This document shows, piece by piece, positions 7,072-50,921 of a stretch of DNA of 64,000 bases; position 1 is the stretch's first letter; each line of letters begins with the position of its first letter. The translations under genes and the position numbers were made by a program. The notes under the pieces are model-generated. The model was not told where the DNA came from. It did no database searches and worked only from the letters and a program-made list of their open reading frames with translations. Origin of the DNA: a virus (Duplodnaviria; Heunggongvirae; Uroviricota; Caudoviricetes); the IMG/VR virus record IMGVR_UViG_3300003973_000001, positions 1 to 64,000 of that record, one strand, 5' to 3'.

Positions 7072-8166
7072 ATGAACGTCCCAGTCAAAGGAAACGAAAA
7101 GATTACGCAGTTATTAAACGAATGGTACATTGAAATTCGTGCCAGACGAATTGGTCAAGCTCATAGATTGAAAGAAGAGATTGATAAAAAGATTGATAGT
7201 ATAGAAAAAGACCAAACTCTACTATTGTATTACTCTCTCTTAGACTTTCGATACCAGTACATTTTAGACAATCTAGGAGTCTCTGTTAACAGCTTTGATA
7301 AGGTTGAAGAGTTTGAGATTCCAACGAACAACTTTTTAACTTATTACTACCACTTTTTTAAGGCTATTCATGCTTCTGGTATTGGTAACTACATGATAGC
7401 AAAAGAACACTTTGACAAAGCTGAATCTCTTCTTGAATTAGTTCCAGATGAGATTGAAAAAGCTGAGTTCTACTACAAATTAGGCGCTTTCCACTATGAC
7501 ATCTACGAATCACTTAACTCAGTTAAATATACTTCAAAGGCAAAGGAAATCTTTGAGCAACATGAAAATTACGAGCGAAACATAGGTTTCTGCGAGAATC
7601 TTCTTGGAACTGCTTGTACAAAGCTAAGAGAATGGGCTTTGTCAGAAGAGCATCTTATTAAGGCTATGGATATTTTCAGTAAGCATGGAGAAGAAAAATA
7701 TGTTCTAATGGTTAGACATAACTTAGGATATATGTATTCTAGTCAGAACTTATCTCCACTAGCAATTAGATATTTATCAGAGGTGACAAACCACAATCCT
7801 AGACATCACAAAGCTTTATTCTTACAAGCTAGAGAGCATTACAAATTAGATGAGCTTGATATCGCAAAAGATTTGGCTGATAGAGGATATAGTATCTGTC
7901 TTGAGTTGGGGAATATAGAGTATAAGCACCTTTTTGCAATTCTGAAATGTCTTATCTCGAATGTGTCTAGTGATGAATTGGAGAAGGTTACAATTGAAGG
8001 AATATCTTACTTTGAAGGCGAATCATTATATGAGTATATAGAAGAGAGTCAAGAGTATATGGCTGTTAAGTTCTATGAAGAAGGCAACCATACTAAATCT
8101 AGTGAATACTTCTATCTAGCTTCAAAAACGAGACAAAAAATTAAGGAAAGGGAGTCTTTAAAATGA
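7072..8166 (+). CDS. rap: Rap-family (RNPP) TPR quorum-sensing regulator/phosphatase
   Basis: About 365 aa. N-terminus ...KITQLLNEWYIEIRARRIGQAHRLKEEIDK...LLLYYSLLDFRYQYIL resembles Bacillus Rap N-termini. TPR-like repeats throughout. AAGGAGG RBS before ATG 7072. Confidence 0.8.
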   Translation: MNVPVKGNEKITQLLNEWYIEIRARRIGQAHRLKEEIDKKIDSIEKDQTLLLYYSLLDFRYQYILDNLGVSVNSFDKVEEFEIPTNNFLTYYYHFFKAIHASGIGNYMIAKEHFDKAESLLELVPDEIEKAEFYYKLGAFHYDIYESLNSVKYTSKAKEIFEQHENYERNIGFCENLLGTACTKLREWALSEEHLIKAMDIFSKHGEEKYVLMVRHNLGYMYSSQNLSPLAIRYLSEVTNHNPRHHKALFLQAREHYKLDELDIAKDLADRGYSICLELGNIEYKHLFAILKCLISNVSSDELEKVTIEGISYFEGESLYEYIEESQEYMAVKFYEEGNHTKSSEYFYLASKTRQKIKERESLK

Positions 8167-8297
8167 AAAAAGTAGCATTGGGCTTAATGGGAATTTTAAC
8201 AGCTTTAACTATGATTGTGAGCGTTCAGTCTAATAGTGATAGTAAGCCTGCATCTCCTACTATTATGATGATGGAACATGGAGACCATGGTGGTTGA
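8163..8297 (+). CDS. phr: Phr-like secreted signalling peptide precursor (44 aa)
   Basis: ATG overlaps the rap stop (ATGA). Translation MKKVALGLMGILTALTMIVSVQSNSDSKPASPTIMMMEHGDHGG has a signal peptide plus a short polar tail. Canonical rap-phr arrangement. Confidence 0.55.
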   Translation: MKKVALGLMGILTALTMIVSVQSNSDSKPASPTIMMMEHGDHGG

Positions 8298-29337: not shown

Positions 29338-32300
29338 TTATCTGTTGTTTAATTGGTTTTTAAGGTATCTCACCTGCTCCGAAAGCTCTTGTATTGCCTT
29401 CCAAGCTAATGTTGTCATCCCATAACCATCTACTGTTTTACCATCTTTCCCTTGAATTAATTTAGGTGCTTCTTCTGCAATTAATCCAATGTTCAACTTT
29501 TCACTGTCATCTTGACTATTGTAGTGGTATAGCCTAGCCTTAGAAGCATTGATTATATCTAATGCACTTCTTTCAAAAGCCGAGATATTCTTCTTATAAT
29601 CTCTAGAAGAAGTATTCTCTATAATACCTGCTAATCTCGCCCAATCAGTATCATTCCCATTACGAGTTTCAAAGCGACCCATAGTTTGTTGATACTTGAA
29701 GATTGCATGAGTGCCATACTGTTGCATGTAGTTAGCCCCTTGAATCCAATAACCCATTAAACGGCTTCCATTTTGGTTAAAAGATATACCGCCACCATAT
29801 GCGTTTATTTCAGTTGACTGGTCTGCATTCTTGCCAATACCAGTTAAGAACTTAACACGACCATTTGCATCCTTAATCGACCAAGTTGCATATTTATCTG
29901 AATTGGGATTACCTACAATATTTCCCCAACCATTAATAATTGCTGATTGATAGCTTTGAAATTGAATAGCAGGTTCGTCCGCATTCTTGCCATGAATCTC
30001 GATTCCTGATTCAGTGGTAAACATTAATCCTGCGCCCGAACCATTTGATAAACCTTGAAACTCAACCGTAGACTTTACAGACCCAACGCTAAATTCAAGA
30101 ATTGACGGAAAGACCTTCGTGTTTCGACTACCATGCGTAACAGTCATTACTGAAGGCTGTATAGCAGTACCTTTATCACCAAAAGGCGAGCCACTTTCAG
30201 CCATTTCAAAGACCTTAACAAGACCTTCTTTTAACTCAGCGTAGTTCTGCTTCGTACCATCAGAAGCACCGTAACTTTTAAATGTGTTACCCTCAATGAC
30301 AGCCTTAATTTTAGGATTTGAAGCGTTAATACTTTGATAAGTAACACCCTTAATCGTACCACCGACAACTTTATCACCACTGATATTCTGAGATTTAAGA
30401 TTATTGATAAAAGCAGTATGAGCGAATAGGCTTGCTACATCTAACTGTTGAGCCTTAATAGAGCCATCAACAATTAATTCTCCAGTGTATCGTTTGCGAA
30501 CTTCTATATCTCTAATATAGTAATATCCACTAGTTCCACCATCTTTTTCAAAGAATAATTGGATACGAGAAATTGTCTTCGTGTCATCTGGAGCAGTCGT
30601 AATCTTAAGGTTCTTAATTACACGAGTGTCTGCTGTTGTAGGAAGAGCAGATATCGCCCCTGCATTTACCCAAGTACCATCAGTGTAATGATATCGCATA
30701 ATTAGATTAAGACTTGTTACACCTGCATCACGATACCCATTGAAGGCAATGTAATACTCATCGTTAACCTTAAACTCAACATAAGTATTGTCCATTATTG
30801 TAAGTGAAGCATAAGCTCCATTCCCAATTTTGAAGAATCTCTTATTGCTTAATAGAACCGTAGGATATCCATTAGGATTTTTCTCTTCGTTAATCTGAGA
30901 CAAGTTAGTAAAGTCGCCAATCGCAATCTGCTGAGCGAAGATTGTATTTGTGGCAATTTTTCCACCATTGATTAACGTTGTCCCTGATTTCCAAGAGTCT
31001 AGTAGGCTCTTTGCACCATTCCAGTTAGAAGCAGAAGAGATTTGTGCATCAAGGATAGTTCCACTTAACTTACTTGAGTTAAATGTTCCATTAGAGTTGA
31101 TATTAGAAGCTCTGTCCCATGTAGCCTTGTTACTATTGATAGCATTGTTTGCTGTGTTTGCTGTATTATTTGCCGTATTGGCAGTTCCTTGAGCGCCATC
31201 AGCTAATGACTTAGCTTTCTGATTAATTACCTTGACTAACTGTGCTTTCTTATCATAATAGTCATCAAATTGACCTCGGAATGTAGCGCCAGTAACAGCA
31301 GAAGTCGTTGTCATATTCGTTAGAATACCGCCAGTACCATTAAGAACAGTGTTTAGAGTGTTATAGGAATTAACAAAGTTTGTCTTCTCTGTTGTGATAC
31401 CATATGTTGTAGCCAATACTTCGTACTGAGGTTTCTCAGAAAGCATTACAGCCCACTCTTTCTTCAATTGAACTTTTTCCACTGGAGTAATCTTACTGTC
31501 AGAAGACATGTCTGCGATAGAGTTTTTAGCCTCTTGAGCTTTTGCATCTGCCCCAGTTCCAATACTTCTAGACAATTCATTAATCTTTCTAACCAGTTGA
31601 GCCTTCTTATCATAGTAGTCATCAAACGTATTTCTAAATGTTTGACCATTGACATCGCTTGTTATAGTAATGTTAGAGATAAGAGGTGAAAGGAGAGTAT
31701 TTAACGCATTATAAGAATTAACGTAATTTGTCTTTTCAGTAGTGATGCCGAAAGTATTTGACAATGCCTCATACTGAGGTTTCTCTGCTGAAATCGTTGC
31801 CCACTCTTTTTTTAACTGTTGCTTCTCAAGTGGAGTTAACTTATTATCATTTGACATATCTGTGATAGAGTAGTCATAGTCTGTAGCATCAATAACTGTC
31901 GCGTATGCAACATGCCAAGTTAAAGGTAATGTTCCACCTTCTAGGTTGAAGAAGTTCGTTGAACTGAAAGTTCCTGCTGAACCGCATTCTATTCTAAATA
32001 AGTATTCTTCCCACTTACCTGTACCTGCTGTTGGAGTTAACCACTCTTGCTTACCGCCTGTTCCAGTTGAATTACTAGCAAATACAAGCTTAGAACCAAC
32101 AGGTATTTTCGCGACAATTCTAGTTATAAAAATAGCATTTGCTCTAGAAGCAGTTTGGAATGAGAACCCACCGTAAGCAGGAGAGATAGGTAATGCAAGA
32201 GATTTTATCTCCAAGACATGTGTTGAATTCGTTGGAGCATCACTTGGCTTAGCAACCCTAGTTACTGTTACGTTTGTATTAGCTGAGTTGTTATATACTT

Positions 32301-35300
32301 TAACGTCATTAAGTCCATTCTTAAACATTGGGTCGCTGTATAAGACTTTCCCATTTAACCCTTGAGTTAATGTTCTCGACAACTCATTAATCTTTCTGAC
32401 TAATTGAGATTTTCTATCGTAGTAATCATCAAACTGCGCTCTAAACGTTGCACCAGTTACACTAGAAGTTGTCGTCATGTTTGTAAGTATTCCGCCACTT
32501 CCATTTAATGCTGTATTCAGAGTGTTGTACGCGTTAACGTAATTATTCTTTTCGGTAGTAACACCAAATCCATTCCCCAAAGCTTCGAATTGAGGCTTCT
32601 CGGCGACCATCACAGCCCATTCCTTTTTAAGCTGAACCTTTTCTACAGGAGTGATTTTGCTATCGCTAGACATATCTGCAATAGAGTTCTGAGCTGTTTG
32701 AGCTTTACTGTCCGCATTAGTACCAATCGTTCTAGCTAGTTCATTAATCTTTTTAACCAATTGTGACATCTTGTCGTAATAATCATCAAATGTATTTCTG
32801 AATGTCGCTCCGTTGATATCACTAGTCACTGTTGTATTAGCGATGATAGGAGTAACTGCTGTATTCAAAGTATTATAAGCATTGACATAGTTCGTTTTCT
32901 CAGTAGTAATTCCATAGATAGTAGCAAGTGCTTCATACTGTGGCTTTTCCGCTACGATTGTCGCCCATTCCTTTTTCAACTGTTGTTTTTCTAAAGGAGT
33001 AGCTTTATTGTCGTTTGACATATCGGCAATAGCACTTTGACTACTTTGAGCCTTTTTATCAACGTCAGCAACTAACTTATCGTAATCCTCTGGAGCTAAA
33101 GTGAAATCAGTTTTTCTGTTACCTTTTTCGAGTTTCATTCTCTTAACATAGAATTCTACTCCATTAGCAAGTGCTGTCGTATAGAAGATGACTGTTCCAT
33201 TTCCTACACCAGTCCCCTTGAATGTATGAGAATATTCTCTCCAAGTAGTGTCAACGTCTACTGTTTTAACGTCAATACTCTCTGCGCCAATGTGAAGCTT
33301 ATGATTTCCTGTACTAGCCTTCATCATTACGCTAACAGTGTACTCTTGGTCTTTCTCAAATACTTTAGTAGCAGAAGAACCGCCACCCAATCTCTGATAA
33401 ATACCTGCTCTTCCTGCTCCAGTGTTAGGAGTAAACTTGAAAGCCTTATCCTCTCCATCGTCTACAACTGCAGTTTGAGCCACGTTTGAATACCAGTTAG
33501 TAGCACCTTGAAGCAATCCTGCATTTAGGAATATGTTCCTACCACCGACAGACATGTTGTCGAGATTTCCTTGAACTCTGGCAATAGCCTCATCAATATC
33601 CTCTTGAGCCAAGCTGTAATCTGTAACTACGTTTCCTAGCTCACCTTTTACATTTCTTATTTTAAACGTAACAGGCGCACCGCTATTATTAACTAATCCA
33701 ATGTTAGATTGGTCGTATAAATCACTAGTGTAGTTATCCTTGTTCTTCCAAGTAAACCAACATTTAGTCCACGTATTAGCTTTTAAGCTTTTGCTAGAAG
33801 TCTGTCTCAATGCAGTATCGTCATTATCATTAGATGTGGACGTTCCAGTCACAGGGAAGTTATTTACATCAGCATTCCAAGTAGTATCGATAGGAGAATA
33901 AATCTCAAAGCTAACCGCGAACCAACTCCCAATAGGAACTACAGAAGTTTTATCGATTATTCTTACGCCTGCACCCCATGAACCACCTGCTCCACTATTA
34001 GCAGTTAAAGTCCAAGTATTTGTAGCTTCATCATATGATGAAGAGGTTACGTTTATAGGAGATATCTGTTTCTTTCTAACAATGTTTTTCGCACCGAATT
34101 GCATTCCATCGATTTTATCCTTAGCATCAGTACCTGCGTTAACTTTACCTTGCATAGCAGGGTCTAAGCTTTGGAATGTAACAGCTCCTGTGATATCAAG
34201 ATGTTTGCCAAGGATTTTAACACCTTCTGCACTAGCGTTGATAGAAGTTTTTACATTACCCTTCTTAACAACATTGATAGCAATCTCTTCAGCGGTTTGT
34301 TTAATTTGAGTTCCTTGAGATTCAACAGTTGTTTTCATACCGTCTACATCTTTTTTAACATCAGTAACAGTCTGTGAAATCCCCTTAGTAGTAACTTCGA
34401 TTTCTGATTTCAACTTAGTCGCAGATTCAGTAATCTTCCCATTTGCTTGCTCTATCGTATATACTTTATCAGCTTCAGCTTTAAGTGCAATACTTTTGTT
34501 TAATAATGTAATAGATGTATTATGCTCTTCAATAGCTGTTCCTTGTTGTGTAACAGACTTACTTAAATCCGTTACGGACTGCCTAATCTTTCCTGCGTCC
34601 TGTTCGATTGCTGTTGTTTTCTTTCCTAAATTATCTAATTCAGTTACGGTAAGTGAAATTTTATCATTCGCGACTTTAAGTGCGCCTTCTGCAACTTCGA
34701 CTCTTCCGTTTAGTTTGTCAACTTTTTCATCAGATGCCTTAAGTTCAATAGATTCGTCTAGTTGCTCTAATTTTGTTTGTTGTGTAGAGTATTTATCATT
34801 CAACTCATCAAAGTCTTTTTTCTCTACCGTATTAACTATCTTACCTTCTAAAATTTCAACGCTAGATTCCGCAGTCTCTAATCTATTAGAGTACTCATTA
34901 AATCTTTCCGTTTCTACTTTGGATTTAATAGCATCGCTTAATACCTCCATAGAAGATGATTGTGACTCCACTTTATTACCTAGCTCTGTCACTTCATCTT
35001 TTGTAGCCATAAGCTTAATACTATCTTCTGTCTGTTTGAGAGATGTTTCAGCCTCTCTTAGTCGAGCATCATTCTTGTCCCCAACGCCAATCACTGCAGT
35101 TAGCTTATCGACCTGCGTAGATAATTTAACGCCTAGATTCATAACTGGCGCTCCTGTGCGATTCCCATGGAGAATATCCACTGTATTCCATCCTGCATTA
35201 AATCCAAGAGCAACTTTAGTTCCAATAGTACTCATATGAGCATTTTCGTATATTTTAGCTCCATTCATATAGATGGTCAAACTATCTTCATGAACAACAT

Positions 35301-35988
35301 TAAAGTATACGGTTTTTCTATCTTTTAAATTTACGTTAGTAAAATAATGAGTGATAATATTGTCACCTGCGAAAGCTACCATACTTGAAGCATCTGGGGA
35401 TTCATTTACTTCCTTTGCGTTAAGACCTTTGATTAAGGAAAAAGATGGAGCTGTATTATCGAAATCAGTTCCTGCAACTTCATATTTTGAAGCAACCCAC
35501 TTGTTTAAGCCTAAATCATGCTCATATGTAGTTCTACTTACCTTTTGCTCAAGCGCTCCATTAATATTCTCGACAGATACATTTAAATTATCAACATCTT
35601 TCCCTACTTTTTGAAACTCTGTTAAGTCAGCCTTGTCTCTTAACTTACTTGTTACGTCTTCATATTCTTTCTCGTAATCCTCAACGTTAACCTTACTGCC
35701 AATCTCTGACTCCATATCCGCAACTTTTCCTTTTAGCTCGTTCCCAACTGTCGATATAGCTTCAACTTCATTATTCAAGGTATTAATTAGGTCTTGTGCG
35801 GTTTTAATGAGTTCGGCTTGTTTAATTTGCTCATCTACTACATCAGCCATTCCACCATCAATTAATGAATTAATTGCTGTTACCACATCAGTCTTTGCTA
35901 ATGTTTTGAGTTTAGATATGTCTCCAACATCTTTTACTGAAGCGTACTTCCATTCATTATTTTCTTTGTAACGAATATAACGTGACAT
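29338..35988 (-). CDS. giant tail fibre (2216 aa) with C-terminal intramolecular-chaperone (S74-like) domain
   Basis: Four internal repeats of about 125 aa (DMSNDNKxTPLEKQQLKKEWA...YGITTEKTNYVN...). C-terminal ...GLIAEEAP...YGMTTLAWKAIQEL matches the self-cleaving chaperone domain. Confidence 0.75.
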   Translation of the reverse strand: MSRYIRYKENNEWKYASVKDVGDISKLKTLAKTDVVTAINSLIDGGMADVVDEQIKQAELIKTAQDLINTLNNEVEAISTVGNELKGKVADMESEIGSKVNVEDYEKEYEDVTSKLRDKADLTEFQKVGKDVDNLNVSVENINGALEQKVSRTTYEHDLGLNKWVASKYEVAGTDFDNTAPSFSLIKGLNAKEVNESPDASSMVAFAGDNIITHYFTNVNLKDRKTVYFNVVHEDSLTIYMNGAKIYENAHMSTIGTKVALGFNAGWNTVDILHGNRTGAPVMNLGVKLSTQVDKLTAVIGVGDKNDARLREAETSLKQTEDSIKLMATKDEVTELGNKVESQSSSMEVLSDAIKSKVETERFNEYSNRLETAESSVEILEGKIVNTVEKKDFDELNDKYSTQQTKLEQLDESIELKASDEKVDKLNGRVEVAEGALKVANDKISLTVTELDNLGKKTTAIEQDAGKIRQSVTDLSKSVTQQGTAIEEHNTSITLLNKSIALKAEADKVYTIEQANGKITESATKLKSEIEVTTKGISQTVTDVKKDVDGMKTTVESQGTQIKQTAEEIAINVVKKGNVKTSINASAEGVKILGKHLDITGAVTFQSLDPAMQGKVNAGTDAKDKIDGMQFGAKNIVRKKQISPINVTSSSYDEATNTWTLTANSGAGGSWGAGVRIIDKTSVVPIGSWFAVSFEIYSPIDTTWNADVNNFPVTGTSTSNDNDDTALRQTSSKSLKANTWTKCWFTWKNKDNYTSDLYDQSNIGLVNNSGAPVTFKIRNVKGELGNVVTDYSLAQEDIDEAIARVQGNLDNMSVGGRNIFLNAGLLQGATNWYSNVAQTAVVDDGEDKAFKFTPNTGAGRAGIYQRLGGGSSATKVFEKDQEYTVSVMMKASTGNHKLHIGAESIDVKTVDVDTTWREYSHTFKGTGVGNGTVIFYTTALANGVEFYVKRMKLEKGNRKTDFTLAPEDYDKLVADVDKKAQSSQSAIADMSNDNKATPLEKQQLKKEWATIVAEKPQYEALATIYGITTEKTNYVNAYNTLNTAVTPIIANTTVTSDINGATFRNTFDDYYDKMSQLVKKINELARTIGTNADSKAQTAQNSIADMSSDSKITPVEKVQLKKEWAVMVAEKPQFEALGNGFGVTTEKNNYVNAYNTLNTALNGSGGILTNMTTTSSVTGATFRAQFDDYYDRKSQLVRKINELSRTLTQGLNGKVLYSDPMFKNGLNDVKVYNNSANTNVTVTRVAKPSDAPTNSTHVLEIKSLALPISPAYGGFSFQTASRANAIFITRIVAKIPVGSKLVFASNSTGTGGKQEWLTPTAGTGKWEEYLFRIECGSAGTFSSTNFFNLEGGTLPLTWHVAYATVIDATDYDYSITDMSNDNKLTPLEKQQLKKEWATISAEKPQYEALSNTFGITTEKTNYVNSYNALNTLLSPLISNITITSDVNGQTFRNTFDDYYDKKAQLVRKINELSRSIGTGADAKAQEAKNSIADMSSDSKITPVEKVQLKKEWAVMLSEKPQYEVLATTYGITTEKTNFVNSYNTLNTVLNGTGGILTNMTTTSAVTGATFRGQFDDYYDKKAQLVKVINQKAKSLADGAQGTANTANNTANTANNAINSNKATWDRASNINSNGTFNSSKLSGTILDAQISSASNWNGAKSLLDSWKSGTTLINGGKIATNTIFAQQIAIGDFTNLSQINEEKNPNGYPTVLLSNKRFFKIGNGAYASLTIMDNTYVEFKVNDEYYIAFNGYRDAGVTSLNLIMRYHYTDGTWVNAGAISALPTTADTRVIKNLKITTAPDDTKTISRIQLFFEKDGGTSGYYYIRDIEVRKRYTGELIVDGSIKAQQLDVASLFAHTAFINNLKSQNISGDKVVGGTIKGVTYQSINASNPKIKAVIEGNTFKSYGASDGTKQNYAELKEGLVKVFEMAESGSPFGDKGTAIQPSVMTVTHGSRNTKVFPSILEFSVGSVKSTVEFQGLSNGSGAGLMFTTESGIEIHGKNADEPAIQFQSYQSAIINGWGNIVGNPNSDKYATWSIKDANGRVKFLTGIGKNADQSTEINAYGGGISFNQNGSRLMGYWIQGANYMQQYGTHAIFKYQQTMGRFETRNGNDTDWARLAGIIENTSSRDYKKNISAFERSALDIINASKARLYHYNSQDDSEKLNIGLIAEEAPKLIQGKDGKTVDGYGMTTLAWKAIQELSEQVRYLKNQLNNR

Positions 35989-36073
35989 CTTATAGCATTC
36001 CTCCTTTTCGATATTTTACGTGGACGAAAGTCCCATATATTCATATATTCATTATAGCAGTCTGACAAAGTTA

Positions 36074-36092
36074 CTGCAATACTTTTGTTTAA
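36074..36092 (-). promoter_or_regulatory. 19-bp motif class A (upstream of the giant fibre); TTGCAG-17-TATAAT
   Basis: ctgcaatacttttgtttaa. On the gene strand TTGCAG is followed by 17 nt then TATAAT. Confidence 0.6.
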
Positions 36093-36123
36093 TAAAATTC
36101 AGATTTTATTAGGTCAATATGAT

Positions 36124-36160
36124 ACAAAAAAAATTGGGAAGACACATTATTATGTCTTCC
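36124..36160 (-). terminator. rho-independent terminator after the major-tail-protein extension
   Basis: GGGAAGACA-taataatg-TGTCTTCCC then A-ATTTTTTTT on the minus strand. Confidence 0.6.
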
Positions 36161-36335
36161 CAAAATCCTACTTATCTTCAGTAATAATTGATTCTTTTTC
36201 GGATGCGGTTTTTACACCACCAGAATTCTCTTCCCCACTCGTATCAGAACCAGTTTCTGGCTCTGAAGGAGTAGTTTCCTCCTCTTCGATTGGTGGAGGA
36301 GTCGGAATTACAGGAGGAGAGACTGGCTCATCCTC

Positions 36336-37094
36336 TCATTCACCGATGATTTTGTAAGTAGCCATATTCTTGTCTTTATCTGGGAACAAGTCAAATGTTA
36401 CTTCAAGCTTTGTAGGCTCTGTAGCAGACATTGTGATTGTAAAGTTAGATTGTGGACGAGCGTTTGGATACTCAATTTGTACGAACTCATCAGTTCCAGT
36501 TTCTTTTTCACGCATTAAAGCATCAGCAACAATGCGGTAAGCTTTAGGGAACTTATCTGCTGAGATAGAGATAGTACGAGCTTGAGCGTCTTTTACTAAG
36601 TAGTAAATAGCGTAAGCGTCACCTACAACTGCATCTGTAGCGAAAGTGATGTCAGAACCAGTGATAGTGAACTGACCTGCTGTTGGAGAAGCAGTAACCT
36701 TGTTTAAAGGCTCATCGATATGCTCGATTTGGTCTCCACCAACTTTGATAATTGTTACAGAATCAGCTACTGGAGCGCCTGCTAATGTAACTTTCTTAGT
36801 AGAAGGAATACGCACAACTTCACGTTTAGCGATGTTAGTTTCACCCTTAACAATTTCTGAACCTGCTACCATAGCTAACCATTGTAGTTCGAATACTTCC
36901 ATTTCAACTTTTAACGTACCTTGACGGTCAGCGTCCCAAGCGATAGAACGTACTCCTTTTGCGTTTGCGAATACACGCTCTGCTTGCCATTCGTTAGTAG
37001 CAACGTTAGCATAGTCAGAGAATACTGCAGGTTTTCCTGTTGCTAATTCAAAAAGACTTAAATTAGCGCAATCTTTAATACCGTAAATAGCCAC
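36336..37094 (-). CDS. major tail (tube) protein
   Basis: GTG start with AGAGGTG RBS. 252 aa, beta-rich. Position between the head-tail genes and the tail. An open in-frame extension follows its TGA stop (see findings). Confidence 0.65.
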   Translation of the reverse strand: MAIYGIKDCANLSLFELATGKPAVFSDYANVATNEWQAERVFANAKGVRSIAWDADRQGTLKVEMEVFELQWLAMVAGSEIVKGETNIAKREVVRIPSTKKVTLAGAPVADSVTIIKVGGDQIEHIDEPLNKVTASPTAGQFTITGSDITFATDAVVGDAYAIYYLVKDAQARTISISADKFPKAYRIVADALMREKETGTDEFVQIEYPNARPQSNFTITMSATEPTKLEVTFDLFPDKDKNMATYKIIGE

Positions 37095-37131
37095 GAAACA
37101 ACACCTCTTGTTTTCTTATAATTTTTAGCTT

Positions 37132-37150
37132 CTGCAAATCTTTTGCTTAA
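37132..37150 (-). promoter_or_regulatory. 19-bp motif class B (upstream of the major tail protein)
   Basis: ctgcaaatcttttgcttaa. Confidence 0.55.
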
Positions 37151-37180
37151 GCGTTTATATAATAAAAGACATATAGTCTT

Positions 37181-37939
37181 TTACTTTCCGATTTTCAATG
37201 TTTCTGTCCAGTGTTTGATAGTATCTTTCATATCAAACTTTTGACTTAATTTGTAGCTCATATTAATGTTGAAAGAATCTAATCCTACAACACTCTTATA
37301 AGCGTTCTGCAATTGATAATAAGTCATAATATCAATCTGTGTGAGCGGTATAAATGTCGAACCGCCAAAAGCAGTAAAGTTTATAATATCTTGAAGATAT
37401 ATAGCTTCCCTTTCGGCTTTTCTTCTTCTACCCTTTTGAAGTTTATCCCAAATATCTTTCTGTCTAGGAGTCATATTTTTAGGAGGCTTTTCAACCTCAA
37501 TATCTTTACGCCCCACAACACTTTGAATAGCATTCCGAACTGTGTTAAACTCAGCCTCATCAATTAGATAAGAATTGTTAACAATTATCTTCATTCTATT
37601 CTCTAATATTTCGATATCGTCAGTCTTAAAGAAGAATTGAAGACTTTCTTTAAGTACGCCCAAAGCGCTCTTCCCATCAAAAATACCATCTAGAAATCCA
37701 CCCTCTTCAGTCTTAGCAAAGAATAACTGAAATACAGTAAACTTCTCTATTAACTCTTCTTCATTCTCAACGCCACTAAATATAGCATCTAGAGTCAAAG
37801 TGTAAGGCATAATATATTCACTAAAACCTTTTTCTCCAATGTCAACAACATCGCTGATTAATGGTTGGTGAATAAATATATTATGCTCTTCACTTACAGA
37901 GATAGGTCTTCCCATCAATAACTTTAACTTATCCATCAC
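37181..37939 (-). CDS. hypothetical head-tail/tail protein
   Basis: ORF. Confidence 0.5.
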   Translation of the reverse strand: MMDKLKLLMGRPISVSEEHNIFIHQPLISDVVDIGEKGFSEYIMPYTLTLDAIFSGVENEEELIEKFTVFQLFFAKTEEGGFLDGIFDGKSALGVLKESLQFFFKTDDIEILENRMKIIVNNSYLIDEAEFNTVRNAIQSVVGRKDIEVEKPPKNMTPRQKDIWDKLQKGRRRKAEREAIYLQDIINFTAFGGSTFIPLTQIDIMTYYQLQNAYKSVVGLDSFNINMSYKLSQKFDMKDTIKHWTETLKIGK

Positions 37940-41657: not shown

Positions 41658-41767
41658 AAAGCGTATTCACCTTCCGTTGTTAAATATAGTTTTATTATTT
41701 TTTTACAGGAGTTACCCCAAACCTACTATTCTTTCACTTCTGGAGGAGTAGTAGGTTCTTCAGTAAT

Positions 41768-42211
41768 TCACTTAGTAGAAATGCGGATAACAGCCATTTC
41801 TCCTGCATACATGTCTTTATCGATAGCGATAACTTCACCATGTAAGCCTGCAGGTGTACCAACTTTGAATCCATTAGCATCTGGAACTACAAGAGCGCCT
41901 TTTGCTAGAGCGCCAGAAACGCCTTTCTTCTCAATAGAGATAACGTCTCCTTCTTCAAGAACGAACGCACGACCAACTTTTCCTTTTTCAAGAACGAAGT
42001 CTAGTTCATTTTGGCGTTCCCAGTAAGTTAATGGTACAGAAACGTGGAATACTAATTTCTTAGTAACATCTCCAGATGGAGTAACTTTGCGAGCCTCTCC
42101 GTCAGCTTCTAATGCTCCAAGAGCAAGGAATTGACCATTCACTAAATCTGTATCAGCGATAACAGACTCGATGTGGGCAGTTGATTTAATCTTGTCTAAA
42201 ATTACGTACAC
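41768..42211 (-). CDS. hypothetical head protein (decoration/auxiliary)
   Basis: ORF between the scaffold and the MCP. Confidence 0.45.
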   Translation of the reverse strand: MYVILDKIKSTAHIESVIADTDLVNGQFLALGALEADGEARKVTPSGDVTKKLVFHVSVPLTYWERQNELDFVLEKGKVGRAFVLEEGDVISIEKKGVSGALAKGALVVPDANGFKVGTPAGLHGEVIAIDKDMYAGEMAVIRISTK

Positions 42212-48660: not shown

Positions 48661-48682
48661 CAACATAATATTTAGTTGTCAA

Positions 48683-48753
48683 CAGGGGTTGTAGGAATCG
48701 AACCCACACTGGAGGTTTTGGAGACCTCTGTTCTACCGTTAAACTAAACCCCT
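48683..48753 (-). tRNA. tRNA-Trp (anticodon CCA)
   Basis: Hand-folded cloverleaf. Acceptor AGGGGTT/AACCCCT, anticodon loop CTCCAAA, T-loop GGTTCGATTCC. CCA not encoded. Confidence 0.75.
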
Positions 48754-48757
48754 AAGA

Positions 48758-48834
48758 TGGCATCCCATACAGGATTCGAACCTGCGAATGCTCGATAGAA
48801 AGTCGAGTGTGTTAGCCAATTTCACCAATGGGAC
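48758..48834 (-). tRNA. tRNA-Glu (anticodon TTC), CCA encoded
   Basis: Cloverleaf with anticodon stem CTCGA/TCGAG and loop CTTTCTA. Position 37 is U, which is unusual. Confidence 0.6.
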
Positions 48835-48965
48835 ATAAAGCACAAGGGTTGTTTACGTTTTTTGTTTTGGACACCCAAGAAACATAAAACTTTCTATAAT
48901 TAGTGACGAATCAAGGCATTGCCTTTGCGTTTTTTTGAATAGAAAGAAACGTATTAAGTCCATAA

Positions 48966-49039
48966 TGCCGACTGTAGGAATCGAACCCACGACCTGTTGC
49001 TTACAAGGCAACCGCTCTAACCTGCTGAGCTAAGTCGGC
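48966..49039 (-). tRNA. tRNA-Thr (anticodon TGT)
   Basis: Acceptor GCCGACT/AGTCGGC. Anticodon stem-loop GTTGC CTTGTAA GCAAC. Confidence 0.75.
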
Positions 49040-49094
49040 AAAACTGAGGACTAGCCTCAGAAATCATAGTAAGGAGGGCTTACAAATGAATAAA

Positions 49095-49166
49095 AGGGAC
49101 ATGAGGGAATCGAACCCTCGTCATCTGGTTGGAAGCCAGAGATAATAGCCTCTATACGAATGCCCC
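49095..49166 (-). tRNA. tRNA-Gly (anticodon TCC)
   Basis: Anticodon stem-loop TCTGG CTTCCAA CCAGA. T-loop GGTTCGATTCC. Confidence 0.7.
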
Positions 49167-49167
49167 A

Positions 49168-49244
49168 TGGAGGAGAGAGTGAGATTCAAACTCACGAATA
49201 ATAGGGTTGCAACCTATCGCGTTAAGCCACTTCGCCATCTCTCC
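49168..49244 (-). tRNA. tRNA-Cys (anticodon GCA), CCA encoded
   Basis: Acceptor GGAGAGA/TCTCTCC. Anticodon stem-loop ATAGG TTGCAAC CCTAT. Confidence 0.7.
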
Positions 49245-49247
49245 ATA

Positions 49248-49334
49248 TGGTGGGAAAGGTAGGATTCGAACCTACGAAACTTGTAAGGTAACAGATTTAC
49301 AGTCTGCCTGCTTTAACCCCTTGCATACTCGCCC
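49248..49334 (-). tRNA. tRNA-Tyr (anticodon GTA), long variable arm, CCA encoded
   Basis: Anticodon loop CTGTAAA. 87 nt, class II. Confidence 0.7.
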
Positions 49335-49342
49335 AAATAAAA

Positions 49343-49372
49343 TAGCGCCCATATTTCAGAGCGCTGTTATGT
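49343..49372 (-). terminator. hairpin terminator after 49374..49637, immediately upstream of tRNA-Tyr
   Basis: AGCGC-(12 nt)-GCGCT followed by ATTTTATTT. Confidence 0.45.
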
Positions 49373-49373
49373 T

Positions 49374-49637
49374 TTAATCTAATTCTACAAATTTATTAAT
49401 CTTGGCTTTAAATCGAGCATTTTGCTCTTTGCCTGCTTTTGCACTATTTACAGAAGATTGAAGTTTATCAATTTCGGCTTGCTTCTTGGCGATTTCGCCT
49501 TGGGCATCCTTAATAATAACGTCAAATTCAGCATCTGATTTATCTACTGATGCAATCGCATCTGCAAAAACCGTTTGTGCATTTTTAAAAGTATTTTCTG
49601 CTTTCGCAATCTTTTGTTCATGATTCATCTTTAGCAT
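49374..49637 (-). CDS. hypothetical coiled-coil protein embedded in the tRNA island
   Basis: ORF with a downstream hairpin terminator (49343-49372). Confidence 0.5.
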   Translation of the reverse strand: MLKMNHEQKIAKAENTFKNAQTVFADAIASVDKSDAEFDVIIKDAQGEIAKKQAEIDKLQSSVNSAKAGKEQNARFKAKINKFVELD

Positions 49638-49660
49638 AACTCTCTCATTCTCCCTTGTTT

Positions 49661-49735
49661 GCTAATTTAATGGTACAGGTGGCAGGATTTGAACCTGCGT
49701 GACCTCCGCCCCAAACGGAGTGACTGACCTCTAGC
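49661..49735 (-). tRNA. tRNA-Pro (anticodon TGG), CCA encoded
   Basis: Anticodon stem-loop CTCCG TTTGGGG CGGAG. Acceptor has two G-U pairs. Confidence 0.6.
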
Positions 49736-49851
49736 CTACACCCATATAATAAAAGCTACCGTTATTTTAAGCTTCTATAGTCCTCTTAATAAGAGTCCAG
49801 AAGTGTGCTTTCATGAGAACCGTAGCGAAACTCAGTGTGTGTGAAAAATAT

Positions 49852-49938
49852 AAGTAAGGAAAGGAGAATACAGGATTCGAACCTGTGGGAGCATTCAGTC
49901 TCCACTTCTTTAGCAAAGAAGCACAATAAGCCACTCTG
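49852..49938 (-). tRNA. tRNA-Ser (anticodon GCT), class II
   Basis: Acceptor GGAGAAT/ATTCTCC. Anticodon stem-loop CTTCT TTGCTAA AGAAG. Long variable arm. Confidence 0.7.
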
Positions 49939-50017
49939 ACAATTCTCCACGTTGGTACTCGTTTTATTCGGAACACGAGTATACATTCCACTCATCGATG
50001 ACAATGCTAGGTGAGCA

Positions 50018-50091
50018 ATCGCATAAGCTTCGGAGGAAGGGGTCGAACCTCCACGTTCTTGGGTCAAAGCCAAGTGACTTTACCAATTTGT
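50018..50091 (-). tRNA. tRNA-Gln (anticodon TTG)
   Basis: Acceptor TTCGGAG/CTCCGAA. Anticodon stem-loop CTTGG CTTTGAC CCAAG. Confidence 0.65.
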
Positions 50092-50097
50092 CTACTC

Positions 50098-50187
50098 CGA
50101 AATAATGTGGCGGAGAGTGAGGGACTTGAACCCCCATCGGCTTTCACACCTACGCTAGTTTTCAAGACTAGTCTCTTACCAATTAGA
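50098..50187 (-). tRNA. tRNA-Ser (anticodon TGA), class II, CCA encoded
   Basis: Acceptor GGAGAGT/ACTCTCC. Anticodon stem-loop CTAGT CTTGAAA ACTAG. Confidence 0.7.
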
Positions 50188-50192
50188 GTAAC

Positions 50193-50267
50193 TCTCCACA
50201 TTTGGCGAGGATAACGAGATTCGAACTCGTGCTACATGGTAGACAGCCATGTGTGTTGACCACTACA
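50193..50267 (-). tRNA. tRNA-Asp (anticodon GTC), CCA encoded
   Basis: Acceptor GGGGATA/TATCCTC. Anticodon stem-loop CATGG CTGTCTA CCATG (U37 again). Confidence 0.65.
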
Positions 50268-50374
50268 CTATATCCCCAAAGCTGTTCTAGCCACCACAGC
50301 TAGAACAGGAGGTAGGAGGTTTTAAAATGAACCAAGATTTAGGTGTTTATAGATTGGATTTAACCAATGCCTAA

Positions 50375-50455
50375 ACATATTAAGAGCCGAGTGCAGGAAT
50401 CGAACCTGCGACCAAAAGTCTGTTACTGAGCGCTCCTTATCGCTTTACCACTAAG
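50375..50455 (-). pseudogene. tRNA-like element (81 nt) lacking a canonical anticodon arm
   Basis: Perfect acceptor GCCGAGT/ACTCGGC, D-arm GCTT/AAGC and T-arm GCAGG-TTCGATT-CCTGC. The 31 nt between them contain a GAGCGCTC palindrome and no 5-7-5 anticodon hairpin. Confidence 0.4.
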
Positions 50456-50521
50456 CTAACTCGGCATAATGTGGAGCAGGAAGTGAGGGACGACCTCATA
50501 GACAATCGTTAATTGCAACCT

Positions 50522-50618
50522 GCATATGGAGTTCTGTAGGTGGGAGTCGAACCCACATGACAAATACTTGACCCTTTCTTTCCCATTTGGGATTACTCGA
50601 ACCTTTCAATATCGCTGA
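50522..50618 (-). ncRNA. oversized tRNA-like element (about 97-100 nt)
   Basis: Acceptor-type terminal pairing GTTCTGT(G)/(C)ACAGAAC and perfect T-arm GTGGG-TTCGACT-CCCAC (the selC-type T-loop). The internal region is too long for a standard tRNA and I could not fold it by eye. Confidence 0.35.
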
Positions 50619-50624
50619 CCTTCA

Positions 50625-50701
50625 CAGAACATAATGGCGTGTCTAGATGGACTTGAACCAACGACCCTCCGCTTAACAGGCGGATGCTCTAACCAACTGA
50701 G
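50625..50701 (-). tRNA. tRNA-Asn (anticodon GTT), CCA encoded
   Basis: D-arm GCTCAGTTGGTTAGAGC. Anticodon stem-loop TCCGC CTGTTAA GCGGA. Confidence 0.7.
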
Positions 50702-50921
50702 CTACAGACACAAATTTGAGGATAGTACCGTTCCTATCCTCAATAACATATATAGTAGGAGGAAAATACATGTCGAGAAAAACAAGCAGGTTGTAACTGG
50801 ATTTGCACCAGTCATCATCCATCTAGGACAACCATGAAAAGAAGCCACGCCAATCAGCATGACTCCTTGGGTATGTTTTGGGGAGTAGCTATCGCATTTC
50901 CCCAGTTATGTTTGTTTTAAA

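What the first reader, a model, noticed from the sequence alone, without database searches (positions are those of the whole stretch)
36124..36338. Major tail protein: 55-codon in-frame open extension beyond the TGA stop, with the terminator placed after the extension
The major tail protein ORF ends with TGA at 36336-36338. The same reading frame then stays open for 55 more codons (EDEPVSPPVIPTPPPIEEEETTPSEPETGSDTSGEENSGGVKTASEKESIITEDK) until TAG at 36168-36170. This stretch is GC-richer than its surroundings, as coding sequence would be. The strong rho-independent terminator of the transcription unit (36124-36160) lies just after the extension, not after the TGA. SPP1-like siphoviruses make a minor C-terminally extended major tail protein by recoding. 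Here the mechanism would be UGA read-through (UGA is the leakiest stop and the phage carries its own tRNA-Trp CCA), or a suppressor among the aberrant tRNA-like genes. A sequencing error is the trivial alternative.
Basis: seen in the sequence. Interest (0 to 1): 0.6.

Follow-up and report, generated by a model that had tools for sequence, protein, structure and literature searches.

The report
Conserved read-through tail on tube protein
In a group of Bacillus cereus phages the tail tube gene ends in a leaky TGA stop, followed by a conserved in-frame stretch of 55-57 codons that evolves like coding sequence, so a small share of tube subunits probably carries an acidic, floppy C-terminal tail made by reading through the stop; no protein data confirm this yet.

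Summary
The tube gene (37094..36336, minus strand; YomU-type tail tube protein of an SPbeta-like B. cereus phage) ends in TGA. Then come 55 open in-frame codons, a TAG, and 4 nt later the terminator.

In one genome that openness is unremarkable; the comparative data matter. At least 30 independent assemblies give 10 distinct alleles. All keep GAA-TGA-GAGGATGAR, 55, 56 or 57 open codons, TAG and the terminator. All alignment gaps are multiples of 3. Of 67 substitutions, 28 are synonymous in the tube frame against 18.5 expected (P=0.003). Sequencing error is excluded. Relatives at 73% identity or less use TAA, with the terminator directly after it.

The peptide is acidic and Pro/Ser/Thr-rich, with no start codon, no domain and no database match. 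No suppressor tRNA exists; the phage tRNA-Trp(CCA) is ordinary.

New here: a conserved 19-bp long-range RNA helix starts 2 nt after the UGA and has two compensatory pairs.

Best reading (about 0.55): low-level UGA decoding, or a GAA-to-GAG stop-hop, makes a minor extended tube subunit. It is functionally analogous to the frameshift-made SPP1 gp17.1* and lactococcal MTP-TpeX, but in frame and without a folded domain. Main rival: a structured, untranslated 3'UTR. No protein evidence exists.

The parts
36336..37094 (-). Tail tube (major tail) protein gene, 252 aa, GTG start, TGA stop; YomU_Tube family
   Evidence: ORF list. PHROG 2729, E=1e-69. Precomputed Pfam PF27173 YomU_Tube, with YomV/YomW/YomX/YonB neighbours. 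Profile hit to solved tail tube proteins 8k98/9jgh, E about 3e-11. About 100 homologues end at the same ...YKIIGE C-terminus.
36336..36338 (-). UGA stop codon in the invariant context GAA-UGA-GAG-GAU-GAR-CCA; proposed recoding site (near-cognate decoding, or a tRNA-Glu hop from GAA to GAG)
   Evidence: Identical in all 10 alleles from at least 30 assemblies. All 13 relatives at 73% identity or less that I examined use TAA. TGA is the rarest stop in the window, 5 of 47 ORFs.
36171..36335 (-). In-frame extension of 55 codons; no ATG/GTG/TTG; acidic, Pro/Ser/Thr-rich peptide (16 D+E, 3 K+R, 9 P, 14 S+T)
   Evidence: Translation. Open in all alleles at 55/56/57 codons. Gaps of 6, 3, 6 and 3 nt. 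Synonymous excess P=0.003 in this frame, and P=0.02 outside the helix arms. Omega about 0.46. No Pfam or PHROG hit and no match in the protein database.
36168..36170 (-). TAG that closes the extension, 4 nt before the terminator stem
   Evidence: conserved in all alleles.
36313..36333 (-). 5' arm of the long-range RNA helix (GGAUGAGCCAGUCUCUCCUCC), starting 2 nt after the UGA
   Evidence: RNAalifold consensus. Helices 1+2 have 19 pairs, 97.5% and 99.1% paired in 8 alleles, with two compensatory pairs, G-C/A-U and C-G/U-A. Fold z-score is -3.4 without the terminator.
36201..36236 (-). 3' arm of the long-range helix (GGGGAAGAGAAUUCUGGUGG...GCAUCC), including a small internal 3-bp hairpin
   Evidence: coordinates mapped.
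36245..36265 (-). Local 9-bp hairpin (CAGAGCCAG-AAA-CUGGUUCUG) in the variable middle of the extension
   Evidence: MFE fold. Helix 4 is 92% paired across alleles but has no compensatory change.
36124..36163 (-). Rho-independent terminator of the tube transcription unit (13-bp stem, 4-nt loop, T8)
   Evidence: Conserved in all alleles, including those with a different downstream gene module.
36051..36079 (-). Probable promoter of the next gene (TTGCAG-17 nt-TATAAT with TG upstream of the -10), read by eye
   Evidence: Sequence. Nearly invariant in relatives that share this downstream gene. Not reported by the consensus scan because the -35 matches only 3 of 6.
48682..48754 (-). Phage tRNA-Trp(CCA), candidate near-cognate decoder of UGA; normal 5-bp anticodon stem; U11:A24 pair in the D stem
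   Evidence: Retained in a second extension-bearing lineage, L056/L058. Absent from the part of the no-extension relative NZ_CP069392.1 that I examined.

Best explanation
The tube gene ends in a leaky UGA. Most ribosomes terminate there and make the 252-aa tube protein. A minority continue in frame for 55-57 codons to a UAG placed just before the terminator. They do so either because tRNA-Trp(CCA), from host or phage, reads the UGA, or because peptidyl-tRNA-Glu hops from GAA over the UGA to the adjacent GAG. The product is a minor tube subunit with an acidic, proline-rich, probably disordered C-terminal tail, which would decorate the tail at low stoichiometry. Shown here: the ORF, its conservation, its coding-type evolution, the invariant stop context and the conserved RNA helix. 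Inferred: that the extension is translated, at what level, by which decoding event, whether the helix modulates decoding, that the tail is disordered, and that the extended subunit is built into virions.
For: 1. There are 10 distinct alleles from at least 30 independent B. cereus-group assemblies. All have TGA, 55/56/57 open codons, TAG and the terminator.
2. Nucleotide-level alignments place gaps of 6, 3, 6 and 3 nt, all multiples of 3.
3. Of 67 parsimony substitutions, 28 are synonymous in the tube frame against 18.5+-3.4 expected (P=0.003). Four other frames show no excess. The excess persists outside the RNA helix arms (P=0.02). Omega is about 0.46, against 0.18-0.22 for the tube gene.
4. 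The four non-mirror frames carry 1.7-4.6 stops per allele, while the tube frame carries none.
5. The extension has no start codon, so it can be expressed only through the tube gene.
6. The extension and terminator travel with the tube gene even where the downstream module is different.
7. Relatives at 73% identity or less use TAA, with the terminator directly after it.
8. UGA readthrough of 6% is reported in wild-type B. subtilis (PMC7918605, citing Karow 1998).
9. The phage tRNA-Trp has U11:A24, the pair created by the Hirsh G24A suppressor mutation (comparison with E. coli tRNA-Trp is from memory; Hirsh mutation cited in PMC13092985).
10. C-terminally extended major tail proteins made by recoding are established: SPP1, 936 TpeX and Listeria phages (PMC4759559, PMC5009743).
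Against: There is no proteomic, ribosome-profiling or reporter evidence. The openness alone is not significant (P=0.18). All alleles come from one clade, so the statistics rest on 67 substitutions and about 4 indel events. Some indels lie in triplet or hexamer repeats (GAG GAG; CAGAGC CAGAGC), where slippage gives 3n lengths regardless of coding. The peptide has no recognisable domain and no homologue anywhere, so no function can be assigned. UGA-G is not the leakiest tetranucleotide in E. coli (from memory). The most conserved parts of the 'peptide' coincide with the arms of a conserved RNA helix, so their conservation could be RNA-level. No lineage has a sense codon at the stop, which also fits an extension that is never needed.
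Confidence: 0.55

Rival explanations
1. Structured, untranslated 3'UTR. On this view the 170 nt between the stop and the terminator are an RNA element, for example an mRNA stabiliser, an RNase target or a 3'UTR-derived small RNA with CUCCUCC anti-Shine-Dalgarno-like motifs. The open frame is a leftover or a side effect of purine-rich and pyrimidine-rich tracts.
For: A conserved 19-bp long-range helix has two compensatory pairs; helices 1 and 2 are 97.5% and 99.1% paired, against 39-56% for the whole structure when the 3' partners are slid. Fold z-score is -3.4 without the terminator. The best-conserved segments are exactly the helix arms. The element shares the terminator, as 3'UTR-derived sRNAs do. 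Two CCUCC motifs are present.
Against: It does not explain why all gaps are multiples of 3 and lie in the non-helical middle. It does not explain the synonymous excess specific to the tube frame, which persists outside the helix arms. It does not explain why only this frame and its mirror lack stops. There is no Rfam match. Covariation rests on essentially two clades, so it is weak evidence. Pairing between Pro-codon and Glu-codon tracts is expected for such a peptide. The two readings are not exclusive.
Confidence: 0.2
2. Decaying relic or chance. An ancestral insertion, or a former C-terminal linker, was cut off by a nonsense mutation. The extension has no present function, and occasional readthrough is merely tolerated.
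For: Linker-like, low-complexity composition. Openness alone is not significant. Omega of 0.46 is relaxed compared with the tube gene. No homologue or domain.
Against: Post-divergence substitutions still favour synonymous sites (P=0.003). Four gap positions all preserve the frame. Length varies 55/56/57 without one frameshift in 10 alleles. No relative has the putative un-truncated ancestor.
Confidence: 0.12
3. Antisense gene. The real coding sequence is the plus-strand ORF 36085..36357 (90 aa, Ser/Gly-rich), whose third codon positions coincide with those of the extension. Gene callers called it in two relatives.
For: This frame is also open in all alleles and shows a synonymous excess (P=0.012). 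It was called as an 80-85-aa gene in L037 and L038. A weak plus-strand promoter-like site lies at 36021-36049.
Against: Its N-terminus is not conserved: the open stretch is 69 to 101 codons and begins inside the terminator loop in three alleles. In the window the TTG start has no Shine-Dalgarno sequence. It would run through the tube terminator and into the tube gene. The mirror frame is automatically stop-free whenever the sense peptide lacks Tyr, His and Gln codons, as here (direct reading). The statistical signal is weaker than for the sense frame. No PHROG match. The promoter-like site is within chance expectation.
Confidence: 0.03
4. Assembly or sequencing error, genetic-code reassignment of TGA, or selenocysteine insertion.
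For: None beyond the bare presence of an in-frame TGA.
Against: The same TGA occurs in at least 30 independent assemblies and 10 alleles. Under the standard bacterial code the window has long intact ORFs, including one of 2216 aa, and four other TGA-terminated ORFs followed by only 2-13 open codons. There is no tRNA with a UCA anticodon and no tRNA-Sec. The downstream structure is a long-range helix, not a local SECIS-type hairpin.
Confidence: 0.01

Closest known systems
Bacillus phage SPP1 gp17.1 / gp17.1* (major tail protein and its C-terminally extended form)
   Same: A Bacillus siphovirus. A minor, C-terminally extended version of the tube protein is made from the same gene by recoding at its 3' end, giving a mixed tube with surface decoration (PMC4759559 discussion; PMC6316719; PMC7666168).
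   Different: SPP1 uses a +1 frameshift into another frame and adds a mass of about 9 kDa that is a folded Ig/FN3-like domain (domain type from memory). Here the extension is in the zero frame behind UGA, is about 6 kDa, has no domain match and looks disordered. The tube proteins belong to different sequence families: YomU_Tube here.
Lactococcal 936-group MTP-TpeX fusion
   Same: The extension ORF lies directly after the mtp gene and is expressed only as a fusion. Both MTP and MTP-TpeX are present in virions, and the extension decorates the tail (PMC4759559).
   Different: The mechanism is a +1 frameshift at a 'shifty stop', CCC.UAG. TpeX is a 22.6-kDa protein with a predicted carbohydrate-binding domain (PMC4759559). 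Here there is no frameshift site and no domain.
Listeria phages PSA, A118 and A500: second product of the major tail protein gene
   Same: [quoted passage not shown]
   Different: They use +1 frameshifting, not in-frame stop readthrough (PMC5009743).
RNA phage Qbeta A1 (read-through) protein
   Same: On the proposed model: a leaky UGA at the end of the major structural gene, read by tRNA-Trp at a few percent, giving a minor in-frame extended structural protein in the virion (Qbeta facts from my own knowledge). This is the closest match in mechanism.
   Different: Qbeta is an ssRNA leviphage and the protein is the capsid coat. Its extension is about 200 aa, folded and essential. Here the virus is a dsDNA siphovirus, the protein is the tail tube, the extension is 55-57 disordered residues, and there is no experimental proof.
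Retroviral and plant-viral readthrough with a 3' RNA stimulator (e.g. MuLV gag-pol pseudoknot)
   Same: An in-frame stop followed closely by a conserved RNA structure (PMC5009743).
   Different: Those are eukaryotic systems with a compact pseudoknot or defined long-range pairing shown to stimulate readthrough. Here any stimulatory role of the helix is untested, and I know of no bacterial precedent.

Membership tests
YomU-type siphovirus tail tube protein (Pfam PF27173) | Sequence match to the family over the full length | tested here: met
   PHROG 2729, E=1e-69, covering residues 3-250 of 252. All database homologues carry precomputed PF27173, named YomU_Tube. My local Pfam copy lacks this model and gave no hit.
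YomU-type siphovirus tail tube protein (Pfam PF27173) | Position in the SPbeta-type structural module (YonB, YomX, YomW, YomV, then YomU) | tested here: met
   The gene order in the window's exact counterparts and in relatives shows these Pfam families directly upstream.
YomU-type siphovirus tail tube protein (Pfam PF27173) | Homology to experimentally solved tail tube proteins | tested here: met
   Profile of alignment A1 against PDB: 8k98 and 9jgh 'tail tube protein', E=2.6e-11 and 3e-11, covering profile positions 6-245.
Recoding-derived extended major tail proteins (SPP1 gp17.1*, 936 MTP-TpeX, Listeria Tsh) | The extension ORF abuts the mtp 3' end and has no translation start of its own | tested here: met
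   No ATG, GTG or TTG among the 55 codons; the extension starts at the codon after the stop.
Recoding-derived extended major tail proteins (SPP1 gp17.1*, 936 MTP-TpeX, Listeria Tsh) | The extension lies in the +1 or -1 frame and is reached at a slippery or shifty-stop site | tested here: not met
   The extension is in the zero frame. The +1 and +2 frames carry 2.3 and 4.6 stops per allele. There is no CCC.UAG-type or X XXY YYZ site at the gene end.
Recoding-derived extended major tail proteins (SPP1 gp17.1*, 936 MTP-TpeX, Listeria Tsh) | The extension encodes a folded Ig-like, FN3 or carbohydrate-binding domain | tested here: not met
   No Pfam or PHROG hit. No homologue in 5.8 billion protein clusters or in phage genomes. 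The composition is 29% D+E, 16% P, 25% S+T.
Recoding-derived extended major tail proteins (SPP1 gp17.1*, 936 MTP-TpeX, Listeria Tsh) | Two size forms of the tail protein present in virions | not testable with these tools
   Needs SDS-PAGE, Western blot or mass spectrometry of virions.
Programmed stop-codon readthrough (Qbeta A1 type) | In-frame ORF after a UGA stop, conserved among relatives and carrying a protein-coding evolutionary signature | tested here: met
   10 alleles, all open. Gaps are 3n. Synonymous excess P=0.003 in this frame only (plus its mirror)..
Programmed stop-codon readthrough (Qbeta A1 type) | Conserved stop codon identity and context | tested here: met
   GAA-TGA-GAG-GAT-GAR-CCA is invariant in 10 alleles. 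The examined relatives without the extension all use TAA. Caveat: this is a single clade, so the conservation is not statistically independent.
Programmed stop-codon readthrough (Qbeta A1 type) | Measured readthrough and an extended protein in particles | not testable with these tools
   No expression data are available. Only the general Bacillus UGA leakiness is documented (PMC7918605).
Suppressor-tRNA-mediated decoding or TGA reassignment | A tRNA with a UCA anticodon, or a structurally altered tRNA-Trp, and in-frame TGAs in other genes | tested here: not met
   13 tRNAs, none with UCA. Relaxed ARAGORN gives only antisense or giant-intron artefacts. tRNA-Trp has a normal 5-bp anticodon stem. 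The other TGA-terminated ORFs have 2-13 open codons after the stop.
Selenocysteine insertion | A local SECIS hairpin just 3' of the UGA, plus tRNA-Sec and SelB | tested here: not met
   No tRNA-Sec in the window. The structure after the UGA is a long-range helix enclosing about 85 nt. Host sel genes were not examined.
Known structured RNA family (Rfam) | Match to a curated covariance model | tested here: not met
   No match at gathering score. Only chance-level matches at E=0.15-0.35, far below gathering scores.

The most novel reading that the evidence does not exclude
A dsDNA phage uses genuinely programmed UGA readthrough. A conserved long-range RNA helix starting 2 nt after the stop, possibly helped by the phage's own tRNA-Trp, would set the fraction of tail tube subunits that receive an acidic disordered tail. 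I know of no other structure-assisted stop-codon readthrough in a bacterial system, and no other readthrough-made tail decoration.
Probability: 0.15. Interest if true: 0.75.

Novelty: new variant of a known kind. Interest (0 to 1): 0.55.

Why it matters
Minor extended forms of phage tail and capsid proteins are a recurring theme. In the dsDNA phage examples I found or recall they are made by frameshifting and carry folded adhesion domains. In-frame readthrough is established for RNA phages such as Qbeta. A conserved zero-frame extension behind a UGA in a tail tube gene would add stop-codon readthrough to the recoding repertoire of tailed phages. It would be a natural example of Bacillus UGA leakiness being put to use. 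It would also raise the question of what a short acidic disordered tail does on a tail tube. The extension appears in no protein entry of a collection with 5.8 billion clusters, so gene callers appear to miss it systematically. The case is easy to test, because the element sits in sequenced B. cereus-group strains on roughly 127-kb SPbeta-like contigs.

Tried and rejected
- DNA searches of the phage collection and the plasmid collection gave nothing close. Relatives came from protein-based look-ups instead.
- The single genome-contig scan returned only one locus.
- The metagenome pattern scan gave five chance matches unrelated to tube genes.
- Searching the 55-aa peptide found nothing in the big protein database, the phage genomes or the window itself. 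So no donor sequence, no fused version and no paralogue is known.
- An exact-match scan for the tRNA-Trp in viral contigs did not hit the one extension-bearing IMG/VR contig. This is uninformative, because a single mismatch defeats the scan.
- A look-up for cluster member P0113 found no contig.
- One literature search on 'TpeX' alone was swamped by unrelated papers.
- A second TGA-terminated gene (41768-42211) followed by a Glu/Pro/Thr-rich 13-codon stretch looked similar. It is just the spacer and ribosome-binding site of the capsid gene.
- Codon-position counts alone ([22, 16, 29]) look only weakly skewed (my rough chi-square, about P=0.15), so I used the synonymous/non-synonymous relocation test instead.
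- Frameshift readings were rejected because the +1 and +2 frames are closed.
Full report
**1. What is there**

On the minus strand an ORF runs from GTG at 37094 to TGA at 36338-36336 and encodes 252 aa. The same frame then stays open for 55 codons (EDEPVSPPVIPTPPPIEEEETTPSEPETGSDTSGEENSGGVKTASEKESIITEDK) to TAG at 36170-36168.

Four nucleotides later begins a 13-bp, T8-tailed terminator at 36163-36124. It is the only terminator-like site in 35800-37300. GC content is 45.5% in the extension, 40.6% in the gene and 29.1% in the intergenic DNA that follows.

**2. What the gene is**

The protein matches PHROG 2729, 'virion structural protein' (E=1e-69). All its database relatives carry Pfam PF27173, YomU_Tube. 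The upstream genes are YonB (capsid), YomX, YomW and YomV types. A profile of the family hits solved tail tube proteins 8k98 and 9jgh at E about 3e-11.

Annotated phage relatives at 30-36% identity are large siphoviruses, and several are labelled major tail or tail tube protein. They include Clostridium c-st, Geobacillus E3, Tsamsa-like Bacillus phages and lactococcal phiL47/WRP3.

The window is therefore an SPbeta-like phage of the B. cereus group. The identical protein is deposited as B. cereus HDR7066861.1 on contigs of about 128 kb. About 100 homologues end at the same ...YKIIGE position. So the TGA marks the family's normal C-terminus, not a premature stop.

**3. Is the open extension more than chance?**

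In this genome alone, hardly. Seven of 46 long ORFs have at least 55 open codons after their stop. A simulation gives P=0.18 for no stop arising in the frame. The decisive evidence is comparative.

- *Sampling.* Exact-protein look-ups for the window protein and its 90%-identity cluster mates returned at least 30 independent assemblies from NCBI genomes, SRA-derived Logan assemblies and IMG/VR. They contain 10 distinct nucleotide alleles of the region.
- *Conserved layout.* Every allele has GAA-TGA-GAG-GAT-GAR-CCA, an open frame of 55, 56 or 57 codons, TAG, and the terminator 4-5 nt later.
- *Indels.* Nucleotide-level MAFFT alignments, not forced by codons, place gaps of 6, 3, 6 and 3 nt. All lie in the variable middle.
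- *Substitutions.* On a neighbour-joining tree there are 67 parsimony substitutions. In the tube frame 28 are synonymous. Moving the same changes to random sites with the same starting base gives 18.5+-3.4 (P=0.003). The wobble-sharing mirror frame on the other strand gives P=0.012, and the other four frames give P>0.5.
- *Outside the helix.* Outside the RNA helix arms described in section 6, the excess remains: 21 observed against 14.4 expected (P=0.02).
- *Omega and stops.* Omega is about 0.46, against 0.18-0.22 for the tube gene. The four non-mirror frames carry 1.7-4.6 stops per allele.
- *Linkage.* In alleles L036-L038 and L041 the genes after the terminator are a different module (136 aa, 127 aa and a 912-aa Laminin_G_3 protein, instead of the giant Peptidase_S74-ended protein). 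The extension and terminator are nevertheless retained. The extension therefore belongs to the tube gene.
- *More distant relatives.* At 73% identity or less (B. gaemokensis, B. velezensis and B. wiedmannii plasmid-phages, IMG/VR contigs, c-st, E3), relatives end in TAA. At most 25 open codons follow, and where I looked a terminator sits directly after the stop.

This excludes a sequencing error. It also argues that the frame has been under protein-level constraint since these lineages split.

**4. How could it be expressed?**

The 55 codons contain no ATG, GTG or TTG. The +1 and +2 frames are closed. Only zero-frame continuation past the UGA can express the extension.

Code reassignment is excluded. 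The window has long intact ORFs under the standard bacterial code, and four other TGA-terminated ORFs are followed by only 2-13 open codons.

No suppressor exists. The 13 tRNAs found by ARAGORN and Rfam include none with a UCA anticodon. Relaxed searches give only antisense or giant-intron artefacts. The aberrant 82-nt tRNA-like gene at 50384-50465 has no UCA reading either.

Two mechanisms remain.

- *Near-cognate decoding of UGA by tRNA-Trp(CCA).* A catA86-TGA reporter is read through at 6% in wild-type B. subtilis (PMC7918605, citing Karow et al. 1998). The phage's tRNA-Trp has a normal 5-bp anticodon stem, unlike the 4-bp-stem tRNA-Trp variants that read UGA efficiently (PMC13092985). It does have U11:A24 in the D stem. 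That is the pair created by the Hirsh G24A suppressor mutation of E. coli tRNA-Trp (comparison from memory; the mutation is cited in PMC13092985).
- *A 'stop-hop'.* Peptidyl-tRNA-Glu would move from GAA over UGA to the adjacent GAG. This triplet arrangement is invariant in all alleles. The product would be two residues shorter. The recoding review notes that such hops could underlie apparent readthrough and that no natural case is known (PMC5009743).

The tRNA-Trp is retained in a second extension-bearing lineage (L056/L058). It is absent from the examined 40 kb of the extension-less B. velezensis relative, which carries six other tRNAs. This is two lineages against one, so it is only suggestive.

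**5. The peptide**

The extension has 13-18 Asp+Glu, 3-6 Lys+Arg, 8-11 Pro, 11-15 Ser+Thr and only 7-9 hydrophobic residues. It has no Pfam or PHROG match. It has no match in a protein collection of 5.8 billion clusters even at E<=10, none in 50,697 phage genomes, and no paralogue in the window.

Its ends are conserved (EDEPVSPP(V/I)(I/V)P... and ...SGEE(N/S)SGGVKTxSEKExTIxE(G/D)K). The middle varies in sequence and length.

I infer an intrinsically disordered acidic tail. No relative has a sense codon in place of the TGA.

**6.

The 21 nt starting 2 nt after the UGA (GGAUGAGCCAGUCUCUCCUCC, 36333-36313) pair with 36236-36201 (GGGGAAGAGAAUUCUGGUGG...GCAUCC). Together they enclose the variable middle.

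- Without the terminator the region folds with a z-score of -3.4.
- In 8 alleles the two helices (19 pairs) are 97.5% and 99.1% paired. Two pairs change on both sides, G-C to A-U and C-G to U-A, and the window allele shows the G-U intermediate. When the 3' partners are slid by 1-3 columns, pairing over the whole 36-pair structure falls from 95.8% to 39-56%.
- Only 4 of 500 column shuffles reach the observed covariation score. However, the alleles form essentially two clades, so this is weak evidence.
- Pro-codon tracts (CCU/CUC) will pair with Glu-codon tracts (GAG/GAA) for purely compositional reasons.

The helix arms coincide with the conserved ends of the peptide, so part of that conservation may be RNA-level. 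With the UGA in the A site, the first ~10 nt of the 5' arm would lie inside the ribosome and the rest of the helix at the mRNA entrance. This is my own geometric estimate. A modulatory role in termination versus readthrough is therefore conceivable but untested.

The helix also supports the main rival, a structured 3'UTR or a 3'UTR-derived RNA. There is no Rfam match.

**7. Rivals weighed**

- *Structured untranslated 3'UTR (0.2).* It explains the helix. It does not explain the 3n gaps, the frame-specific synonymous excess outside the helix, or the frame-specific lack of stops.
- *Relic or chance (0.12).* It fits the linker-like composition and relaxed omega. It does not fit the continued synonymous bias and frame preservation.
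- *Antisense gene (0.03), the plus-strand ORF 36085-36357.* It was called by gene finders in two relatives.
  - Its N-terminus is not conserved: the open stretch is 69-101 codons and begins inside the terminator loop in three alleles.
  - It has no ribosome-binding site.
  - Its statistical signal is weaker than the sense frame's.
  - The mirror frame is automatically stop-free when the sense peptide lacks Tyr, His and Gln codons, as here.
- *Sequencing error, reassignment or selenocysteine (0.01).* Excluded or unsupported, as described in sections 3 and 4.

**8. Comparison with known systems**

Functionally this resembles the minor extended major tail proteins of SPP1 (gp17.1*), the lactococcal 936 group (MTP-TpeX, shifty stop CCC.UAG, decorating the tail) and Listeria phages PSA/A118/A500 (PMC4759559, PMC5009743, PMC6316719). 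It fails two defining features of that group: a frameshift site and a folded appended domain.

Mechanistically the closest precedent is the A1 readthrough protein of RNA phage Qbeta, made by UGA readthrough via tRNA-Trp to give a minor structural protein (from my own knowledge). Other members of this tube family decorate themselves differently, with an FN3 domain inserted mid-protein (P0087 and others).

I therefore rate it a new variant of a known kind. In the literature I could search, I found no dsDNA-phage tail protein extended by in-frame stop readthrough. That is absence of evidence in a limited library, not proof of novelty.

**9. Verdict**

The extension behaves as coding sequence and can be reached only by recoding at the UGA. 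However, translation, its level, the decoding event, the role of the helix and any function are all inferred.

| Item | Value |
|---|---|
| Confidence in a translated, selected readthrough extension | about 0.55 |
| Interest | 0.55 |
| Most novel reading not excluded | helix-assisted programmed readthrough using the phage tRNA-Trp |
| Probability of that reading | about 0.15 |

Noticed in passing
window 50384-50465 (-); also L056 1094-1175: Aberrant 82-nt tRNA-like gene with about 10 extra nt in the anticodon arm. Rfam scores it as tRNA at 52 bits. ARAGORN calls it Ala(agc), or Cys(aca) with a 10-nt intron. It is conserved in a second phage lineage. No UCA anticodon reading.
   Followed up: partly
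window 50531-50626 (-): A second tRNA-like element with an intact 7-bp acceptor stem and T arm but a long insertion between them. ARAGORN detects it only at a low threshold, as Gly(tcc).
   Followed up: partly
window 49406-49636 (-): A 76-codon ORF with a Shine-Dalgarno-like sequence upstream sits inside the tRNA cluster, between tRNA-Pro and tRNA-Tyr. Its translation is rich in K, A, E and Q (read).
   Followed up: no
window 29338-35988 (-); L036-L038, L041, L044-L045: A giant 2216-aa protein with internally repeated segments and a Peptidase_S74-type C-terminus follows the tube terminator under its own promoter. Its length ranges from about 1340 to 2890 aa in close relatives. In some relatives it is replaced by a 136-aa + 127-aa + 912-aa Laminin_G_3 module. 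This looks like a recombination hotspot for host-recognition genes directly after the tube gene.
   Followed up: partly
window 36309-36332 (-): A 7-codon mini-ORF (ATG AGC CAG TCT CTC CTC CTG TAA, MSQSLLL) lies in the +1 frame and starts 4 nt after the UGA, with GGTGA 8 nt upstream. It is kept in all alleles, with the second and fourth residues varying. Probably a by-product of the conserved sequence.
   Followed up: no
proteins P0087, P0090, P0092, P0095, P0100-P0102 (tube homologues of 367-373 aa): Distant members of the same tube family carry a fibronectin type III domain inserted in the middle of the protein (fn3 at residues 145-218 of P0087). This is a different route to decorating the tube.
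   Followed up: partly
L055 (NZ_CP069392.1, B. velezensis plasmid-phage) 7131-8285 versus window 48682-50711: The tRNA repertoire differs between relatives. The examined region of the extension-less B. velezensis phage has 6 tRNAs (Asn, Pro, Asp, Tyr, Gly, Arg) and no tRNA-Trp. The window and L056/L058 have 13, including Trp.
   Followed up: partly
window 41729-41767 (-): The TGA stop of the 147-aa gene upstream of the capsid gene is followed in frame by ITEEPTTPPEVKE and then two stops. It superficially resembles the tube extension, but it is only 13 codons long and contains the capsid gene's ribosome-binding site.
   Followed up: yes
window 36021-36049 (+): A promoter-like site (TGGACG-17 nt-TATATT) lies on the plus strand just upstream of the antisense ORF 36085-36357. 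The number of such sites in the region is within chance expectation: 3 found against 4.3 expected.
   Followed up: partly
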